Made by a program: the position numbers. Source: Escherichia coli (GTDB taxonomy: Bacteria > Pseudomonadota > Gammaproteobacteria > Enterobacterales > Enterobacteriaceae). Taken from it: a stretch of 64,000 nucleotides of DNA. Of the stretch, positions 21,201-29,882 are shown piece by piece. The stretch lies in NCBI RefSeq assembly GCF_050920415.1, contig NZ_CP169309.1; one strand, written 5' to 3'. Positions within the stretch are counted from its first letter, which is position 1. Every line of letters starts with the position of its first letter.

Positions 21201-24200
21201 GGAGTGCCTGTGTTAGACCGCCATCTTCATCCCCGAATTAAACCTTTGTTGCATCAGTGTGTGAAGGTTCTGGATAAACCTGGTATCACGCCAGATGGTT
21301 TAACGTTAGTGGGGTTTGCTATCGGCGTGTTGGCATTGCCGTTTCTGGCACTGAGCTGGTATCTGGCGGCGCTGATTGCCATTTTACTAAACAGATTGCT
21401 TGATGGTCTGGACGGCGCGCTGGCACGGCGTCGAGGCCTCACCGACGCAGGCGGCTTTCTCGATATCTCGTTGGATTTCCTTTTTTACGCGCTGGTGCCT
21501 TTTGGGTTTATCCTCGCCGCACCGGAGCAAAACGCGCTGGCAGGCGGCTGGCTGCTGTTTGCGTTTATCGGCACGGGCAGCAGTTTTCTCGCTTTTGCTG
21601 CGCTGGCGGCGAAACATCAGATTGATAATCCCGGTTATGCGCATAAATCGTTTTATTATCTGGGCGGGTTAACCGAAGGCAGCGAGACGATTTTGCTGTT
21701 TGTTCTGAGTTGTCTCTTGCCGGCTTATTTTCCGTGGTTTGCGTGGATATTTGGCGCGCTGTGCTGGATGACGACCTTTACGCGGGTGTGGAGTGGATAT
21801 CTGACGCTGAAGTCGCTCCAGCGTCAGTAGTTGCAATGTTATTTGCTGCTGTCCGGGCCGCGCTCACCGGTTGCTACGGGATTTTTCGGATCGCTGCTCC
21901 ATTCGTACCAGCCGCCGTCGTAAACGGAGACGTTATTCCAGCCCATTGCTCGTGCGTACATAAAGGTTTCGGACGCGCGCCAGCCGGTGCCGCAGTAGAA
22001 TGAAACTTGCTGATCTGGTTTGATATTCCATGCTTTCCACATAGCGGCAATATCATCGGCGCTACGCATGGTGCCATCCGGGTTATGGAAATCCTCCATA
22101 TGCGTCGAGTCGCTACCAGCGTGTCCCCAACGGGCTCCGGCTATTTCACCTTTTGGCTTAATATAGCTGTAACCACTGGTCGTACCGATAAATTCTGGCC
22201 ACGAACGAATGCTCACCAGCGATGCATCCTGGCGATGCAGCAGCCCACGGGCCTGTTCCATATCAAGCATCAACTGCGGTTGCGCCGGGATCTTCACGCC
22301 GAAATCCGGTTCAGCTTTCACTTTCGGTGGCGTTCCGCGCTCAACAGGCAGTCCCGCGTCGGACCAGGTTTGCCAGCCGCCGTCCAGCAGGCGCACATCT
22401 TTCACCCCTGCATAGAGCATAATCTGTGCTACACGCGCTGCTGCGTATACATCACGACCATATAGAATCACCGTGGTGTCATGACGAATGCCATGTTTTG
22501 CCAGCATCGCTTTCAGTTGTTCATCAGAGACTTTATTCCACAGCGGTTCGCTTTCCACTTCATTGGTATCGATGTAATCCGCGCCGGGAATATGGCTGAT
22601 AAGGTAAAGCTTAGGAGCGCCCCAGGCCGCTTCAATGACTTTCCAGTCACCGGCAGGTTTCGCTGTAACGTCTTTTCCTTGTTGCAGGTCATGCAGCCAT
22701 TGCGGATAAACCAGCTGCTCAAAGTGCGGCAGTTTTTGCAGACGGGAAGGTTCGCTTAGCGCGTCACTCAAAATGGAGATATGCGTAAAACCTGCTTTTT
22801 GCAGTCGCGTTTTGACGGCGTCGACATCTTTGTCATTACCGTACAGCGCCACCGGAGCGTCGGTTTTCAGGTTATGTTGCTTGATCCACGCGTTGAGCTG
22901 TTCGGTGCTCATTTTGTCGAGCCAGCTAGCAGAGAGGTTTAAGGCGGCAGGTTCATGACCAGAAGGGCCATTTAAGGTTTGTGGCCAGCCGTTATAAAAC
23001 GCGCTGGGGCGAGTATCTATCGCTTTGCCATTTTGTTGTTGAAGCTGGTCAAGTGTAAGAGGCTTCGCCAGTTCAGCGGCCCACGAAGAAGCGCAAGCCA
23101 GCCCTAAAGCCATTGCCAGCGCGGTCATTTGAGAAACACGTTTCATCGAAAATCCCGACATTGTAGTTTTGAGTGCGCCATTCTGAACTGACGCATTGGG
23201 AAAAACTTTGCGTTATCGCAGTTTGTTGTAATTTTCTGACCACTGCGCCATATCCAGAACAGAACTATCAGCAGGAACATCCTGGATATCGTGCGTTACC
23301 TGAACGACGGGGATCGCCATGGCGCGAATTTCGCTGAACACCCACTGGCGAAAATTATCGCGCAGAGCCACATCAAGACGGCTGAACGGCTCATCCAGGA
23401 GTAACGCTCTTGGCTGGGCGAGAAGGGCGCGTAGCAGAGCAACGCGCGCTCGCTGACCGCCAGACAAAGTGGCAGGATCCTGATGGAAAGCTCCGTCAAG
23501 GCCTGAACGCTCAAGTGCATCATTCACGGCATTACGTCGGGCATTCCCCTTAAGTGTCTCCGGTAGCGCCAGCAGTAAATTTTGCCCGACGCTGAACTGG
23601 TCAAATAACAGTGCATCCTGGAAAAGAATGCCAATCTGACGCTGTGCGGTGGGTTGCATGTCAATCCGTTGCTCATTGAGCCATAGCTCACCTGCACAAG
23701 AAAACTGTCCGGCCAGCGCACCAATCATCCATGAAAACAGTGTAGATTTTCCACAGCCAGACGGCCCCATTAACGTGACAATGTCACCTTTATCCACCGT
23801 AAAGTTAACGTTTGTCAGCAAGCGGCTTTCTGGTAAACGTAGCGAAACATTTTTCACGCAGAGCATTAGCGGAGTCCTTGTCTGACATAACCTACCCATT
23901 TTGCGACTAACGCGGTCAGGGCAAAAATAATAAGCGGCAACAGTAGTTGCCATAAAGCCTGGGCGGCGAGAATGCCGTTGCTGCCGCCGCTGCTTAATGC
24001 CACCGCTTCAGTGGTGAGCGTCGGAAAACGCCCCGCGCCCAGCCACAGAGTCGGCATATACTGCGCAATACTGACTGAAAATCCTACCGCGAAGGCAATC
24101 AGCGCAGGGCGCAACATGAGTGGGCATTTCACGTAAAAGAAGATTTTGGCCCGCGACCAGCCCAGTGTTTGCGCAATCAAAATTAACCGTGAATCAATGC

Positions 24201-27200: not shown

Positions 27201-29882
27201 CCGCCCGTTAACATACTGCCCGCCCAGGAATAAACAATAGTCGCCGGTAACTGACCAAGCCCGGTGGCGATAAAAAACGAGCGAAAACGTATTGACGTCA
27301 AACCGGCAGCATAGCTGATTGGATCGAAAGGGACAAAAGGCAATAACCGGCATACCAGGATAGTGTGTTTGCCGTAGCGAGTGAAAAAGCCGTCCATACT
27401 GTCAAGCATGGTTTTACCGGTTAATTTTTCCACCACTTCGCGGCCCATTACTCTGGCGATAAAAAAGCATAGCGCCGCGCCCGCCATAGAACTGGTCCAC
27501 GACAGCAAGCCGCCCCAGAACGCGCCAAACAGCGACGCATTGGCAAAGGTGATCAAAAATGCAGGCAGCGGTGCAGCAATGGCCTGTAAGATCATTAAAA
27601 AGAATGAGACCAGTGCAGCCTGCGTGCCGTAAGACGCAATAAAGCGTTCAATGCCTTGTTGATCCACGGCGGCAAAGGCTACAAGGCTGCTGTTAATAAA
27701 CTCATAAACGCCGGGAATCAGCGCCCATGCGAGCAGCGCAACAATTAACAAGATGATAATGACGCCACGCCAGAGCCACATTTTACGGTTTTTATCTCTC
27801 ATCTTTCATCTTTGTTGTTCGGTTAAAGAGGTTTTATCAGAAGTGGTCAGTGCCACTTGTTTGTAACGGGCGTAGCATTTAGCAAGCTGAATAAGAATAA
27901 ACAGTATTAGCCCTGCCAGACAAAGTTTGAAAATAAATGATAATGTTATGCCTTCAGTAACAAGGTCGCTGGCCATAAAAGTATAAATAAAGATCCCCGG
28001 CAGAGTCGTGAATGCCGAAATAAAGGTATATGGCCAAAAGGCAATGGCGGTTAATCCGTAGGCGTAATTTTGAATATTGTAAGGAAATAGCGGAATTAAG
28101 CGGGTAAGAATAAGAAAATCGATACCGTTACGTGCAATCCCTTTCTCAATAGACTGAAAGACGGTGGTATCCCCAACATATTTCAGCACCAGTTCTCGCC
28201 CCATCCAGCGAGCAATCAAAAAGGAAACCGACGAAGCGAGCGTTGCTGCAACTAACGAAAGCAGAGTCCCCAAGAATGGACCAAAAATAATGCCACTGCC
28301 AATGACCAGGACACTACCGGGCAGCAGCAGAAGAGTGGCAATAACAAATAACAGAATATAAAGGCTGTAACCGAAAATACCACTCTGGCGAATAAGTGCC
28401 TGCAAGTGAGGAAGATCGCTAATGAAATTGAATATGCCTGAAGCATAAACAAGATAAATTGCCAGAGCAAAAGTCAGACTACCAACAACGAACTTACACT
28501 CAGCTTTCATCGTGGAGATTTCCTATATCAAGCCTTGATAATAGAGAAGTGAAAAACGCGATGACGGTATAACAAACCTAAGCTGGTCACAAATCCTTAC
28601 TGCCAGTTTCTTGATTATCCTCAAGAATCGGCCTCCTGACCTGGAGGATGTCAGGAGGCTGCGTCATTAGCGGCGGAAGGTCGCCCACACAGGCGCGTGA
28701 TCGGACGGTTTTTCCATGCTGCGGATTTCATAGTCGATGCCGGTTTCTACGCAACAGTCTGCCAGCGGTTGGCTGGCGAGCAGCAGGTCGATACGCAGAC
28801 CACGGTTATCGTCAAAACCTTTTGAGCGGTAATCAAACCATGAGAAACGATCTGCTGTTTCCGGATTCGCATGGCGGAAGGTATCCACCAGCCCCCAACT
28901 TATCAGCCTGTCCATCCATTCACGTTCTTCAGGCAGGAAAGAACATTTACCAGTACGCAGCCAGCGTTTGCGGTTCTCTTCGCCAATGCCGATATCCAGG
29001 TCGGTGGGGCTGATATTCATATCGCCCATAATCAGCACCGGATTTTCACGCTTGAGTTCGGTTTCCAAATAATTTTGCAGATTCTGATAAAACTGCGCCT
29101 TCGCCGGGAATTTTATCGGATGGTCGCGGCTTTCACCCTGCGGGAAGTAACCGTTGATCACGGTGACATTGCCCAGCGGCGAGGGGATTTCCGCCATAAT
29201 AATTCGCCGCTGCGCCTCTTCGCCGTCGTCAGGGAAGCCGCGACGCACGGCAATCGGCGTCTCTTTGGTCAGCAGCGCCACGCCATAATGGCCTTTCTGC
29301 CCGTGATAAAACACGTTGTAGCCGAGCTTCGCCACCTCTTCGAGCGGAAACATATCGTCATGAACTTTTGTCTCCTGCAGGCCAATCACATCCGGTTGGT
29401 GCTTTTCGACGATGGCTTCAAGCTGGTGAGGTCTGGCGCGCAGGCCGTTGATATTAAAAGAGACAAATTTCATAGTCGCTGCCATTTATTCAGATAAAGA
29501 GTGCGTGGATGGTAGCAGAATTTCGCTTTGCTTACCGCCTGTTGTTAAGTGATTTGATCGATGGTTGTTAATGATGTCAACGATGGCGCAAAAAATGCCC
29601 GCTTTTGGTGCGCGCTGCGTCAGAATGGCGCAGTAATTTCCAGTAAATTTCGTCAATGATCACAATTCCAGAATTATATTTTACTTCTGCATAACATTGC
29701 GTTTTTTATTCTTTTTATTCACCTGCATCGCAAACGTATTCACTTTATATGCACTTTAAATGCATATGGTTTGGTTATAACTCCTTGATTTCCAGTTAGC
29801 CACCGCGGTTTATGCACTTTTATCACTGGCTGGCACGAACCCTGCAATCTACATTTACAGCGCAAACATTACTTATTATTAA

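What the first reader, a model, noticed from the sequence alone, without database searches (positions are those of the whole stretch)
21204..28510. Under-characterised sulfur-linked membrane module (ynjF, ynjE, ynjDCBA, ydjZ, ydjX)
A periplasmic multi-rhodanese sulfurtransferase (ynjE) sits beside a complete ABC importer (ynjB binding protein, ynjC double permease, ynjD ATPase), an AhpD-like protein (ynjA), two DedA membrane proteins and a divergent CDP-alcohol phosphatidyltransferase (ynjF). Overlapping start/stop codons for ynjD/ynjC, ynjC/ynjB and ydjZ/ynjA indicate translational coupling. The transported substrate and the lipid product of ynjF are not established to my knowledge.
Basis: partly seen in the sequence, partly recalled or inferred. 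Interest (0 to 1): 0.4.

Follow-up and report, generated by a model that had tools for sequence, protein, structure and literature searches.

The report
Orphan ynj importer–lipid-enzyme gene module
This is the known but functionally unsolved E. coli ydjX–ynjF gene cluster; comparison with distant bacteria shows that its transporter is tied to a small membrane phospholipid-type enzyme and often sits beside the selenium-activating enzyme SelD, which points to selenium handling at the membrane rather than plain sulfur uptake.

Summary
The locus is core E. coli (5377 of 5426 complete genomes).

The "sulfur-linked" label is only partly supported. I examined 80 species-level loci holding YnjB relatives.
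- **Conserved core:** it is ynjB-ynjC-ynjD-ynjF. ynjF abuts ynjD on the same strand in 24 of 40 evaluable non-enteric loci, and a YnjF::YnjB fusion protein exists.
- **Enteric-only genes:** ynjE (the rhodanese protein) and ynjA were found only in Enterobacteriaceae loci.
- **Variable partners:** DedA membrane proteins, interchangeable thiol/disulfide redox proteins, and SelD. SelD is fused or adjacent in 8 non-enteric loci and lies 4.35 kb from ynjF in this window.
- **Published data:** the operon and ynjE belong to the FNR regulon, share a co-expression group with yedEF (putative selenium transporter), and ynjC is linked to colistin fitness.

Best reading (confidence about 0.4): an anaerobically induced envelope module in which ABC import is coupled to a CDP-alcohol phosphotransferase and DedA lipid transporters, serving chalcogen trafficking, most likely selenium. 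No substrate is established.

The locus itself is known. The YnjBCD–YnjF coupling and the SelD link did not appear in the literature I could search. Interest 0.55.

The parts
21210..21830 (+). ynjF: 206-aa CDP-alcohol phosphotransferase-family membrane protein. An alternative GTG start lies at 21204. It is convergent with ynjE across an 8-nt gap.
   Evidence: PF01066 at E 1.2e-10. Best NCBIfam hits are archaetidylinositol-phosphate and PIP synthases, far below their cut-offs. The motif DGxDGxxAR-x7-G-x3-D-x3-D is intact and conserved in 35 homologues. dN/dS against K-12 is 0.053. Homologues directly follow ynjD in 24 of 40 non-enteric loci. It is found fused to a YnjB-like protein in P0199.
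21839..23146 (-). ynjE: 435-aa periplasmic protein with three rhodanese domains and a signal peptide (MKRVSQMTALAMALGLACASSWA/AE). Active-site Cys385.
   Evidence: Three rhodanese stretches. Identical in fold to PDB 3IPO/2WLR. The next closest solved structure is EanB, the ergothioneine C-S bond-forming sulfurtransferase, at E 1e-88. YnjE Tyr326, Cys385 and Arg390 align with EanB Tyr353, Cys412 and Arg417. Found only in Enterobacteriaceae loci.
23213..23866 (-). ynjD: 217-aa ABC ATPase. The start codon shares 1 nt with the ynjC stop.
   Evidence: PF00005. Best NCBIfam hits are PhnT2, CysA-type and ThiQ. Walker A (GPSGCGKS), LSGGQ, Walker B (LLLDEP) and the H-loop are visible in the translation.
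23866..25401 (-). ynjC: 511-aa fused double permease. It overlaps ynjB by 28 nt.
   Evidence: BPD_transp_1 at residues 354-510. Permease models also hit residues 27-253. The halves align in register at the EAA loop. Literature: ynjC P213S confers fitness under colistin.
25374..26540 (-). ynjB: 388-aa periplasmic substrate-binding protein with a signal peptide (…SLATHA/SD).
   Evidence: NF008633 at 556 bits. No solved relative by sequence. The AF2 model has pLDDT 94.9. Nearest folds are PhnS (4R6Y), PotD, FutA/FbpA, AfuA and ThiB at about 15% identity. The family is small: 303 clusters at E<=1e-30.
26550..27098 (-). ynjA: 182-aa AhpD-like (CMD) protein with a CxxC motif (CEFC). The start codon shares 1 nt with the ydjZ stop.
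   Evidence: PF02627. Best NCBIfam hit is NF053654, 'YciW-related (seleno)protein', at 101 bits, below its cut-off. PDB relatives are PA0269, Bmp8 debrominase and AhpD. In most other enteric genera the homologue sits upstream of ynjF and overlaps it.
27098..27802 (-). ydjZ: 234-aa DedA/VTT membrane protein of subfamily COG0398.
   Evidence: PF09335. A 52%-identical orthologue sits beside the YnjF::YnjB fusion in metagenome locus L004. The subfamily is described as scramblase-like and not UndP-flippase-like.
27806..28510 (-). ydjX: 234-aa DedA/VTT membrane protein and first gene of the operon. This is the allele found in genomes that lack ydjY.
   Evidence: PF09335. Only 73% amino-acid and 75% nucleotide identity to K-12 ydjX, but 96% nucleotide identity to a ydjY-less E. 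coli.
28611..28624 (.). FNR-type site TTGATTATCCTCAA, one mismatch from TTGAT-N4-ATCAA, about 107 nt upstream of the ydjX ATG.
   Evidence: It is the only site with one mismatch or fewer in 20200-29900. The half-sites are conserved in K-12 (TTGAG-AAAA-ATCAA). The literature reports FNR activation of ydjXYZ-ynjABCD from -60.5.
28632..28657 (-). GC-rich hairpin (CCTCCTGAC…GTCAGGAGG) directly after the xthA stop. It probably insulates the operon from xthA transcription.
   Evidence: Read from the sequence. The simple terminator scan did not call it because there is no T-run.
23160..23240 (-). ynjD-ynjE junction carrying the ynjE promoter region: TTCAGA-16-TACAAT, plus the element GTCAGAAAATTACAACAAACTG.
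   Evidence: Promoter-like match. The literature places an FNR site at -41.5 of ynjE. No site with two mismatches or fewer to the FNR consensus is present here.
15812..16855 (+). selD (selenide, water dikinase), 4.35 kb from ynjF. This is context, not part of the operon.
   Evidence: RefSeq annotation of the identical genome. SelD is also fused or adjacent to ynjBCD(F) in 8 non-enteric loci, and syntenic in 20 enteric loci.

Best explanation
The eight genes form one anaerobically induced envelope module. In most E. coli the module also includes ydjY.

**Shown.**
- An FNR-type site precedes ydjX. The genes ydjX-ydjZ-ynjA-ynjB-ynjC-ynjD are tightly packed or overlapping.
- YnjBCD has all the parts of a binding-protein-dependent ABC importer of the ThiBPQ/PhnSTUV/FbpABC/AfuABC type, with one fused permease.
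- Across Beta-, Gamma- and Deltaproteobacteria the fourth gene of that operon is ynjF. A natural YnjF::YnjB fusion exists.

**Inferred.**
- What YnjBCD brings in, or a derivative of it, is the substrate that YnjF joins through a phosphodiester to a CDP-activated partner at the inner face of the membrane. The partner is most simply CDP-diacylglycerol, which would give a minor phospholipid.
- The scramblase-like DedA proteins YdjX and YdjZ move that lipid between leaflets.
- The recurring thiol/disulfide partners are YnjA here, a C_GCAxxG_C_C protein elsewhere, or a DedA::disulfide-reductase fusion with the SelD-partner oxidoreductase TIGR03169.
- Those partners, together with SelD next door, indicate that the pathway handles a redox-active chalcogen. 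Selenium destined for SelD under anaerobiosis is the most likely candidate.
- Periplasmic YnjE is an enteric add-on. It would load or transfer sulfane sulfur or selenium on the outer side.

The transported compound and the YnjF product remain unknown.
For: **Coupling of the importer to YnjF.**
- ynjF abuts or overlaps ynjD on the same strand in 24 of 40 evaluable non-enteric loci (maps). By group: Thiotrichales 4/4, Chitinibacteraceae 4/4, Vibrio 6/6, other Gammaproteobacteria 3/3, Desulfofustis 1/1, Comamonadaceae and relatives 6/12.
- P0199 is a single 591-aa protein. Its N-terminal part aligns with YnjF over full length (34% identity) and its C-terminal part is YnjB-like.
- In locus L086 a YnjB-like protein and a YnjF-like gene are neighbours with no permease or ATPase present.

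**DedA link.**
- Locus L004 reproduces the E. coli gene order: a YdjZ orthologue at 52% identity, a second DedA, a Cys-rich redox protein, then YnjF::YnjB.
- About 715-aa DedA::pyridine-nucleotide-disulfide-oxidoreductase fusions lie directly upstream of ynjB in Deefgea, Thiothrix, Chitinilyticum, Craterilacuibacter and other loci.

**Redox link.** In most enteric genera ynjA sits upstream of ynjF and overlaps it. In Escherichia it sits upstream of ynjB.

**Selenium link.**
- TIGR03169, the 'N-terminal to SelD' oxidoreductase, scores above its cut-off in the two proteins tested and clusters in about 13 loci.
- It is fused to a SelD domain that keeps the Cys/Lys motif in 7 Hydrogenophaga-type loci. 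A stand-alone SelD follows ynjF in L071.
- selD is 4.35 kb from ynjF in the window.
- A published co-expression group contains ydjXYZ-ynjABCD, ynjE, yedEF and yjiLM. It is more active in anaerobic than aerobic conditions, and its authors proposed a role in Mo/Se usage.
- FNR activates both transcription units.
- ydjY and ynjE are co-induced with ydfZ and fdnG in O157.

**Envelope phenotype.** ynjC P213S gives a strong fitness gain under colistin. A ynjC deletion lowers uptake of a cationic dye.
Against: - No ligand, lipid product or selenium phenotype has been demonstrated for any of these genes.
- YnjB's nearest folds bind polyamines, 2-aminoethylphosphonate, iron, sugar phosphates or thiamin. 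None of the top matches is a sulfate- or molybdate-type oxyanion-binding protein, and identity is only about 15%.
- Ten alphaproteobacterial loci and several Hydrogenophaga loci have ynjBCD without an adjacent ynjF. The coupling is therefore not universal.
- DedA is adjacent in only 8 of 41 non-enteric loci.
- The closeness of selD in enterics is a single inherited arrangement with four unrelated genes in between.
- A pure selenium-import model does not need YnjF. A pure lipid model does not need SelD. The link between the two is inference.
- CDP-alcohol phosphotransferases can also make soluble phosphodiesters (DIPP synthase), so a lipid product is assumed, not shown.
- YnjE has a published cytoplasmic role in molybdenum-cofactor sulfuration, reflected in the K-12 annotation. 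That role fits poorly with a periplasmic location.
- The 80 loci are the closest relatives among at least 596 hits, not a random sample.
Confidence: 0.4

Rival explanations
1. Head-group salvage with no chalcogen role. YnjBCD imports an exogenous polar alcohol or phospho-alcohol, possibly cationic. YnjF attaches it to CDP-diacylglycerol and DedA proteins flip the lipid, which changes envelope charge. This is analogous to choline import plus phosphatidylcholine synthase. The redox genes and SelD would be incidental neighbours.
For: - The ynjBCD-ynjF operon structure and the YnjF::YnjB fusion.
- Other YnjB-like proteins are fused to membrane lipid-type enzymes: ICMT/PEMT-like and GT2.
- DedA association.
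- The ynjC-colistin and cationic-dye phenotypes.
- Invariant acidic and aromatic residues in the YnjB family: D95, D136, W239, W373, W381.
- YnjB's fold neighbours include PotD and PhnS.
Against: - It does not explain why three non-homologous thiol/disulfide proteins recur inside the operon.
- It does not explain why SelD or TIGR03169 is adjacent in independent arrangements.
- It does not explain the co-regulation with yedEF.
- No unusual phospholipid is known from E. coli (my own knowledge).
Confidence: 0.22
2. The cluster is a sulfur-compound uptake and assimilation system (thiosulfate, sulfonate or similar). Periplasmic YnjE processes the substrate and YnjBCD imports it.
For: - YnjE is a rhodanese-family protein in the periplasm.
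- YnjD and YnjC give weak hits to CysA/CysT models.
- YnjA is related to the YciW-type AhpD-like proteins.
Against: - YnjE has little or no thiosulfate or 3-mercaptopyruvate activity.
- ynjE and ynjA are restricted to enterics, while ynjBCD-ynjF is widespread.
- Reported regulation is by FNR and anaerobiosis. To my knowledge it is not by sulfur starvation.
- It does not explain YnjF or DedA.
Confidence: 0.12
3. There is no single module. ydjX-ynjD is one operon of unknown function. ynjE is an independent sulfurtransferase feeding molybdenum-cofactor synthesis (the published assignment). ynjF is an unrelated neighbour.
For: - ynjE has its own reported FNR promoter. ynjF is on the opposite strand with its own upstream region.
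- K-12 annotation calls ynjE 'molybdopterin synthase sulfurtransferase'.
- ynjE is absent outside enterics.
Against: - ynjF is co-operonic with, or fused to, ynjBCD in many distant taxa.
- ynjE and the operon share an FNR regulon and a co-expression group.
- YnjE carries a signal peptide and was expressed cytoplasmically only after that peptide was removed.
Confidence: 0.12

Closest known systems
ThiBPQ / PhnSTUV / FbpABC / AfuABC group of ABC importers (one binding protein, one fused 12-helix permease, one short ATPase)
   Same: - Same three-part architecture and same fused double permease.
- YnjD and YnjC score best against PhnT2/PhnU2, ThiQ and CysA/T models.
- The YnjB model's nearest folds are PhnS (4R6Y), PotD, FutA/FbpA, AfuA and ThiB.
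   Different: - All hits fall far below the family cut-offs.
- YnjB has no sequence-detectable solved relative and only about 15% identity to its fold neighbours.
- I know of none of these systems that carries a CDP-alcohol phosphotransferase as a fourth operon gene.
Phosphatidylcholine synthase (Pcs) working with a choline ABC importer: import of a head-group alcohol followed by CDP-diacylglycerol-dependent phospholipid synthesis
   Same: The logic I propose for YnjBCD plus YnjF is the same. An imported polar compound is joined to a lipid by a PF01066-family enzyme.
   Different: - YnjF scores 19 bits against a Pcs model whose cut-off is 400.
- As far as I know, pcs and choline-transporter genes are not fused or translationally coupled.
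- That pathway has no DedA or redox partners.
Phosphatidylinositol-phosphate / archaetidylinositol-phosphate synthases (PIPS/AIPS) and DIPP synthase
   Same: These are the best-scoring characterised relatives of YnjF and its homologues. They are of similar size (about 200 aa) and carry the same catalytic Asp motif. The nearest solved structures are AF2299 and mycobacterial PgsA1.
   Different: - Scores are 63 and 36 bits against cut-offs of 180 and 170. PDB E-values are only 0.003-0.015.
- The YnjF family has its own signature (GTgsSFLAFA, KsFYYlgGLTE-tET).
- There is no inositol-phosphate synthase in the cluster.
EanB, the anaerobic ergothioneine synthase (rhodanese-type C-S bond-forming enzyme, PDB 6H98/6KTV)
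   Same: - It is YnjE's closest non-self structure, at E 1e-88 over 395 residues.
- It has the same three-domain build.
- YnjE Tyr326, Cys385 and Arg390 align with the EanB catalytic residues Tyr353, Cys412 and Arg417.
   Different: - YnjE is exported to the periplasm.
- No EanA-type histidine methyltransferase is in the cluster.
- No activity on hercynine has been reported.
DedA subfamily COG0398 (TMEM41B/VMP1-like putative scramblases)
   Same: YdjX and YdjZ belong to it. The subfamily's commonest fusion partner, a pyridine-nucleotide-disulfide oxidoreductase, is the same fusion found next to ynjB in other bacteria.
   Different: No substrate is known for any bacterial member. The published association was with aerobic metabolism, whereas this operon is induced by FNR.
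Selenium delivery genes: SelD with its fusion partner TIGR03169, and YedE/YedF
   Same: - TIGR03169::SelD or SelD lies next to ynjBCD(F).
- selD is 4.35 kb from ynjF in the window.
- The operon shares a co-expression group with yedEF.
   Different: - No YedE or YedF homologue occurs in any fetched locus.
- No ynj gene has a demonstrated role in selenium use.

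Membership tests
Binding-protein-dependent ABC importer (type I) | Secreted substrate-binding protein of the class II fold | tested here: met
   YnjB matches SBP_bac_8 and NF008633. An N-terminal signal peptide is visible in the translation. The AF2 model has pLDDT 94.9 and matches PotD/PhnS/FbpA folds at probability 1.0.
Binding-protein-dependent ABC importer (type I) | Permease with BPD_transp_1/EAA loop, and ATPase with Walker A, signature and Walker B motifs | tested here: met
   YnjC has BPD_transp_1, and its two halves align at the EAA region. 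YnjD has PF00005 and shows GPSGCGKS, LSGGQ and LLLDEP.
Thiamin (ThiBPQ) or 2-aminoethylphosphonate (PhnSTUV) transporter, as equivalogs | Score above the curated equivalog cut-off | tested here: not met
   YnjD scores 130 against ThiQ (cut-off 245-298) and 143 against PhnT2 (cut-off 458). YnjC scores 33 against PhnU2 (cut-off 593).
CDP-alcohol phosphatidyltransferase (PF01066) | Pfam score above the gathering threshold and the Asp-rich motif D-x2-DG-x2-AR-x7/8-G-x3-D-x3-D | tested here: met
   42.4 bits against a threshold of 22. The motif is present and conserved in 35 homologues.
CDP-alcohol phosphatidyltransferase (PF01066) | Identity of the CDP donor and the alcohol acceptor; whether the product is a lipid or a soluble compound | not testable with these tools
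   No equivalog model reaches its cut-off. The nearest solved structures have E-values of 0.003 or weaker.
Rhodanese / thiosulfate sulfurtransferase | Rhodanese domains with a catalytic Cys loop | tested here: met
   Three domains and the loop CGTGWR with Cys385. The literature nevertheless reports poor thiosulfate activity.
EanB-type ergothioneine synthase | Catalytic Tyr353, Cys412 and Arg417 equivalents | tested here: met
   YnjE Tyr326, Cys385 and Arg390 align with them.
EanB-type ergothioneine synthase | Cytoplasmic enzyme encoded next to an EanA histidine methyltransferase; acts on hercynine | tested here: not met
   YnjE has a signal peptide. No methyltransferase lies between xthA and gdhA. 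Activity was not testable.
DedA/VTT family, subfamily COG0398 | VTT domain; subfamily assignment | tested here: met
   PF09335 at 86-88 bits for both proteins. Only weak hits to the UptA model, 35.7 bits against a cut-off of 250. The COG0398 assignment of YdjZ comes from the literature.
AhpD-like / carboxymuconolactone decarboxylase family | CMD domain with a CxxC motif | tested here: met
   PF02627 at 36.5 bits against a threshold of 23. CEFC aligns with CAYC of PA0269.
Selenium-utilisation system | Genomic linkage to SelD in independent lineages | tested here: met
   - selD at window 15812-16855.
- SelD fused to TIGR03169 next to ynjBCD in 7 loci, and stand-alone after ynjF in L071.
Selenium-utilisation system | Selenium binding, selenium transport, or a selenium-dependent phenotype | not testable with these tools
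   Only co-expression with yedEF and a published proposal are available.
Sulfur-starvation (CysB/Cbl) regulon | Induction by sulfur limitation, or CysB/Cbl sites | not tested
   The papers I read report FNR and weak, probably indirect BaeR effects. I did not scan for CysB sites.

The most novel reading that the evidence does not exclude
The module is a lipid-carrier route for bringing selenium (or sulfane sulfur) across the inner membrane.
1. YnjF builds a minor phospholipid whose head group, supplied by YnjBCD, carries a thiol.
2. On the periplasmic face the lipid captures Se/S, for example as a selenotrisulfide. In enterics YnjE and YdjY do the loading.
3. The DedA proteins flip the loaded lipid.
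4. A membrane-tethered disulfide reductase releases selenide directly to SelD. This reductase is the DedA::oxidoreductase fusion with TIGR03169 in other bacteria, and YnjA here.

If true, this would give DedA subfamily COG0398 a substrate. It would explain the old report linking a DedA protein to selenite uptake (my own knowledge). It would also identify the unidentified 'specific' selenite entry pathway of E. coli mentioned in the abstract of PMC2744661.
Probability: 0.1. Interest if true: 0.85.

Novelty: new variant of a known kind. Interest (0 to 1): 0.55.

Why it matters
**Why the genes matter.** Every gene here belongs to a known family, and the locus is catalogued in E. coli K-12. Even so, nine adjacent genes of the best-studied bacterium have no physiological role. 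They include two of its eight DedA proteins, an orphan ABC importer and its only uncharacterised CDP-alcohol phosphotransferase.

**What the comparative result adds.** It gives three concrete handles that were absent from the literature I could search.
1. YnjF is the dedicated partner of YnjBCD. Transporter and enzyme should therefore be studied together.
2. DedA and a thiol/disulfide reductase are recurrent partners, sometimes in one polypeptide.
3. SelD and its fusion partner keep turning up next door.

**What this makes testable.**
- How E. coli acquires trace selenium anaerobically.
- What bacterial COG0398 DedA proteins transport.
- Why a ynjC mutation affects colistin fitness.

All three can be tested with simple deletions, 75Se labelling and lipidomics.

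Tried and rejected
- **RNA elements.** An Rfam scan of 20000-30000 at E<=1 found only a chance tmRNA_permuted hit at 22 bits against a gathering score of 47. There is no riboswitch or leader.
- **Promoter and terminator scan.** The number of promoter-like sites is no higher than in shuffles. I use it only for the TACAAT box upstream of ynjE.
- **FNR site at ynjE.** I could not confirm it by consensus. No site with two mismatches or fewer lies in the ynjD-ynjE junction. I cite the paper only.
- **Sequence search of PDB with YnjB.** No hit at E<=0.01.
- **Word-indexed homologue search with YnjB.** It returned only enteric relatives, so I used the exhaustive representative search instead.
- **First 43-sequence YnjB alignment.** It was too diverse for locus finding. 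A 10-sequence subset worked.
- **Arsenosugar lead.**
  - TIGR04282 and TIGR04283, named 'arsenosugar biosynthesis' transferases, lie beside ynjF in L034. A cluster of TIGR04283-type proteins occurs in four Hydrogenophaga-type loci.
  - None of the neighbouring ORFs I scanned matched the ArsS radical-SAM family.
  - I treat this as lineage-specific context, not as the function of the module.
- **YedE/YedF.** No homologues in any of the fetched loci.
- **Shared regulator motif.** K-12 ydjX and ynjE upstream regions share the 10-mer CAACAAACTG next to the FNR-type element. Two differences exist at the ydjX site in the window, and my rough estimate of the chance expectation is about 0.04. I do not rely on it.
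- **YnjA as a membrane-anchored periplasmic protein.** I rejected this. Its N-terminal 55 residues fall inside the homologous region of the YciW-type model, residues 33-175. They are probably part of the fold.
- **Literature.** No functional study of ynjF or ynjBCD was found. The YnjE structure paper is not held. The paper cap stopped me from reading two DedA/selenite papers.
- **Scratch files.** looked as if loci were missing. They are stored several to a file.

Full report
**1. What is in the sequence**

The stretch 21204-28510 holds eight intact genes. They are ynjF (+), then on the minus strand ynjE, ynjD, ynjC, ynjB, ynjA, ydjZ and ydjX.

- YnjF: CDP-alcohol phosphatidyltransferase.
- YnjE: three rhodanese domains.
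- YnjD: ABC ATPase.
- YnjC: 511-aa permease.
- YnjB: binding protein of the narrow family NF008633.
- YnjA: AhpD-like CMD protein.
- YdjZ and YdjX: VTT/DedA proteins.

The claimed overlaps are real. ynjC/ynjD share 1 nt, ynjB/ynjC overlap by 28 nt, and ydjZ/ynjA share 1 nt. The two halves of YnjC align in register at the EAA loop.

It is present in 5377 of 5426 complete E. coli genomes. Against K-12 all eight genes show purifying selection, with dN/dS of 0.03-0.35.

**2. Regulation and what has been published**

A one-mismatch FNR site, TTGATTATCCTCAA, lies at 28611-28624, about 107 nt upstream of ydjX. It is the only site that good in 20200-29900. Its half-sites are conserved in K-12 although the spacer differs. 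A GC-rich hairpin after xthA separates the units. No Rfam element is present.

Published data add the following.
- ChIP and expression data place ydjXYZ-ynjABCD and, separately, ynjE in the directly FNR-activated regulon (PMC3688515). I could not confirm the ynjE site by consensus.
- BaeR over-expression raises ynjAB weakly and probably indirectly.
- An independent-component analysis of E. coli transcriptomes found a co-expression group made of exactly ydjXYZ-ynjABCD, ynjE, yedEF and yjiLM. The group is more active in anaerobic than aerobic conditions. Its authors proposed that it serves molybdenum and selenium usage (PMC7888660).
- In O157:H7, ydjY and ynjE rise together with ydfZ and fdnG.
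- YnjE is periplasmic and has little or no activity with thiosulfate or 3-mercaptopyruvate. Its substrate is called unclear (PMC10215317).
- A ynjC P213S mutation gives a strong fitness gain under colistin. A ynjC deletion lowered uptake of a cationic dye (PMC9184624).
- Nothing functional was found for ynjF or for a YnjB ligand.

**3. The comparative result that changes the picture**

The YnjB family is small, with 303 clusters at E<=1e-30 among 1.84 billion representatives. Some members are fusions.
- P0199 is a 591-aa protein. Its first 185 residues align with YnjF from end to end at 34% identity. The rest is YnjB-like.
- Others fuse an ICMT/PEMT-like membrane methyltransferase or a GT2 glycosyltransferase to the YnjB-like domain.

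I fetched 80 species-level genome loci around YnjB relatives. I searched their ORFs with the window's proteins.
- Outside Enterobacteriaceae the operon is ynjB-ynjC-ynjD-ynjF on one strand, with ynjF abutting or overlapping ynjD.
- This holds in 24 of 40 evaluable loci: Thiotrichales 4/4, Chitinibacteraceae 4/4, Vibrio 6/6, other Gammaproteobacteria 3/3, Desulfofustis 1/1, Comamonadaceae and relatives 6/12, Alphaproteobacteria 0/10.
- YnjE and YnjA homologues occur only in the enteric loci. There ynjE always sits between ynjD and an inverted ynjF.

The conserved core of the 'module' is therefore the importer plus the CDP-alcohol phosphotransferase, not the rhodanese protein.

**4. Recurrent partners**

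*(a) DedA.*
- The contig that carries P0199 (L004) reads: a YdjZ orthologue at 52% identity, a second DedA, a C_GCAxxG_C_C Cys-rich protein, YnjF::YnjB, then a permease-like ORF. This is the E. coli order with the redox gene swapped and ynjF fused.
- In Deefgea, Thiothrix, Chitinilyticum, Craterilacuibacter and others, a roughly 715-aa protein lies directly upstream of ynjB. It fuses a VTT/DedA domain to a full pyridine-nucleotide-disulfide oxidoreductase (Lpd/MerA-like).
- This is the fusion that the DedA subfamily paper lists as the commonest for COG0398. That paper argues the subfamily is scramblase-like and not an undecaprenyl-phosphate flippase.

*(b) Thiol/disulfide redox.*
- Three unrelated solutions occupy the same place: AhpD-like YnjA, the C_GCAxxG_C_C protein, and the fused reductase.
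- Within enterics ynjA itself moves. In Citrobacter, Kluyvera, Yokenella, Buttiauxella, Atlantibacter and others it lies upstream of ynjF and overlaps it. In Escherichia it lies upstream of ynjB.

*(c) SelD.*
- The gene before the DedA fusion is TIGR03169, the oxidoreductase defined as the N-terminal partner of SelD. It scored 313 and 501 bits against a cut-off of 310 in the two proteins tested.
- In seven Hydrogenophaga-type loci it is fused to a SelD domain. That domain scores 291 bits on TIGR00476 and keeps the Cys-x-x-Lys motif, next to ynjBCD(F).
- In L071 a stand-alone SelD follows ynjF.
- In the window selD lies at 15812-16855, 4.35 kb from ynjF. That synteny holds in the 20 enteric loci long enough to show it.

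*(d) Locus L086.* It has TIGR03169-like, DedA::reductase, DUF547, a YnjB-like protein, a small ORF and a YnjF-like gene, with no permease or ATPase. This ties the binding protein to the enzyme even without the transporter.

**5. The individual proteins**

- **YnjB.** It has no solved relative by sequence. A confident model (pLDDT 94.9) is nearest to PhnS/STM0429, PotD, FutA/FbpA, AfuA and ThiB at about 15% identity. That is the group of binding proteins that work with fused permeases. The ligand cannot be read from this.
- **YnjF.** It keeps the catalytic Asp motif and a family-specific C-terminal signature. Its best characterised relatives are inositol-phosphate-using synthases, far below cut-off.
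- **YnjE.** Its closest non-self structure is EanB, the enzyme that forms the C-S bond of ergothioneine from polysulfide (E 1e-88). The residues reported as critical in EanB are Tyr353, Cys412 and Arg417. They align with YnjE Tyr326, Cys385 and Arg390. YnjE may therefore transfer sulfur or selenium to a specific carbon or thiol acceptor rather than act as a general rhodanese.
- **YnjA.** It aligns with PA0269, Bmp8 and AhpD around its CEFC motif.

**6. Interpretation**

Shown:
- one FNR-type site and a tightly packed six-gene operon;
- a complete ABC importer;
- operon-level and fusion-level coupling of that importer to YnjF in distant bacteria;
- recurrent DedA, thiol-redox and SelD neighbours.

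Inferred:
- the imported compound feeds YnjF, which makes a phosphodiester, most simply a minor phospholipid;
- DedA proteins translocate that lipid;
- the pathway handles a redox-active chalcogen, most likely selenium on its way to SelD when E. coli makes selenoprotein formate dehydrogenases anaerobically.

I give this combined reading about 0.4. Four rivals follow.

| Rival reading | Confidence |
|---|---|
| Lipid head-group salvage without any chalcogen role | 0.22 |
| No real module | 0.12 |
| Lipid-thiol carrier that ferries selenium across the membrane (a specific version of the main reading) | about 0.1 |

**7. Limits**

- The 80 loci are the closest of at least 596 hits.
- ORFs were called mechanically.
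- TIGR03169 and fusion memberships were checked by HMM for representatives and by clustering for the rest.
- Alphaproteobacterial and some Hydrogenophaga loci lack an adjacent ynjF.
- The closeness of selD in enterics is one inherited arrangement.
- No tool here can test ligand, product or phenotype.

**8. Novelty**

The locus is known and annotated, and each gene is an ordinary member of a known superfamily. Two features make the system a new variant of a known kind rather than a described system:
- an importer with a CDP-alcohol phosphotransferase as its fourth gene;
- recurrent DedA, disulfide-reductase and SelD partners.

The closest analogue in logic is choline import plus phosphatidylcholine synthase.

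Noticed in passing
window 27802-27806 (ydjX/ydjZ junction): ydjY is absent here. In K-12 it is a 225-aa lipoprotein with a CxxCx3C motif, lying between ydjX and ydjZ. It is present in 5353 of 5426 complete E. coli genomes, so the window belongs to the roughly 1% that lack it. Presence and absence also vary among Citrobacter species.
   Followed up: partly
window 27806-28510 (ydjX): ydjX exists as two deeply diverged alleles. The window copy is 75% nucleotide and 73% amino-acid identical to K-12, with dS about 1.4. It is 96% identical to a ydjY-less E. coli. The allele type tracks ydjY presence, which suggests an old cassette replacement.
   Followed up: partly
window 21210-21830 (ynjF): ynjF is far more diverged from K-12 at silent sites (87% nucleotide identity, dS 0.62) than its neighbours nudG and ynjD (97-98%). 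Yet it is strongly constrained, with dN/dS of 0.053. This looks like a recombination patch.
   Followed up: no
window 17204-32170: Flanking housekeeping genes are only 92-97% identical to K-12. Only 8 of 5423 genomes reach 95% identity over the finding. The window comes from an atypical lineage filed under E. coli.
   Followed up: no
window 18816-18898 (topB-gdhA spacer): ynjI (DUF1266) lies between topB and gdhA in another E. coli genome (L002). It is missing here, leaving an 83-bp spacer.
   Followed up: no
window 15812-16855: selD lies 4.35 kb from ynjF, in the ydjA-selD-topB block. This became part of the argument once SelD was found fused or adjacent to ynjBCD in other bacteria.
   Followed up: yes
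window 21839-23146 (ynjE): YnjE is much closer to the ergothioneine synthase EanB (301 bits) than to any ordinary rhodanese (97 bits or less). It keeps EanB's catalytic Tyr, Cys and Arg. It might form a C-S or C-Se bond on a specific acceptor.
   Followed up: partly
window 20716-20750 and 21831-21838: There are two convergent gene pairs with almost no spacer. ynjH and nudG overlap by 35 nt at their 3' ends. ynjE and ynjF are 8 nt apart. Both pairs appear in a published list of overlapping-transcript 'excludons'.
   Followed up: no
window 20716-21209 (nudG and the 86-bp nudG-ynjF spacer): nudG, a CTP/5-hydroxy-CTP pyrophosphohydrolase, is transcribed divergently from ynjF, an enzyme whose reaction uses a CDP-activated substrate and releases CMP. 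The pairing is conserved in enterics. A functional link is only a thought.
   Followed up: no
loci L089/L090, L005, L086: YnjB-like binding domains also occur away from any ABC transporter. They are fused to a GT2 glycosyltransferase or an ICMT/PEMT-like methyltransferase, or placed beside a YnjF-like gene with no permease or ATPase present. This hints that the domain can serve membrane enzymes directly.
   Followed up: partly
L003 3780-3800 and 9874-9895 (K-12); window 23219-23240: K-12 ydjX and ynjE upstream regions share the 10-mer CAACAAACTG just downstream of an A-rich FNR-type element. The ynjE copy is identical in the window. The ydjX copy differs at two bases. This is marginal: my rough estimate of the chance expectation is about 0.04.
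   Followed up: partly
L034 14037-15353: In a betaproteobacterial genome, TIGR04282 (a CofC-like nucleotidyltransferase) and TIGR04283 (a GT2) lie between ynjF and the DedA::reductase and SelD-fusion genes. NCBI now names both 'arsenosugar biosynthesis' transferases. A nucleotidyltransferase beside a CDP-alcohol phosphotransferase would supply an activated head group.
   Followed up: partly
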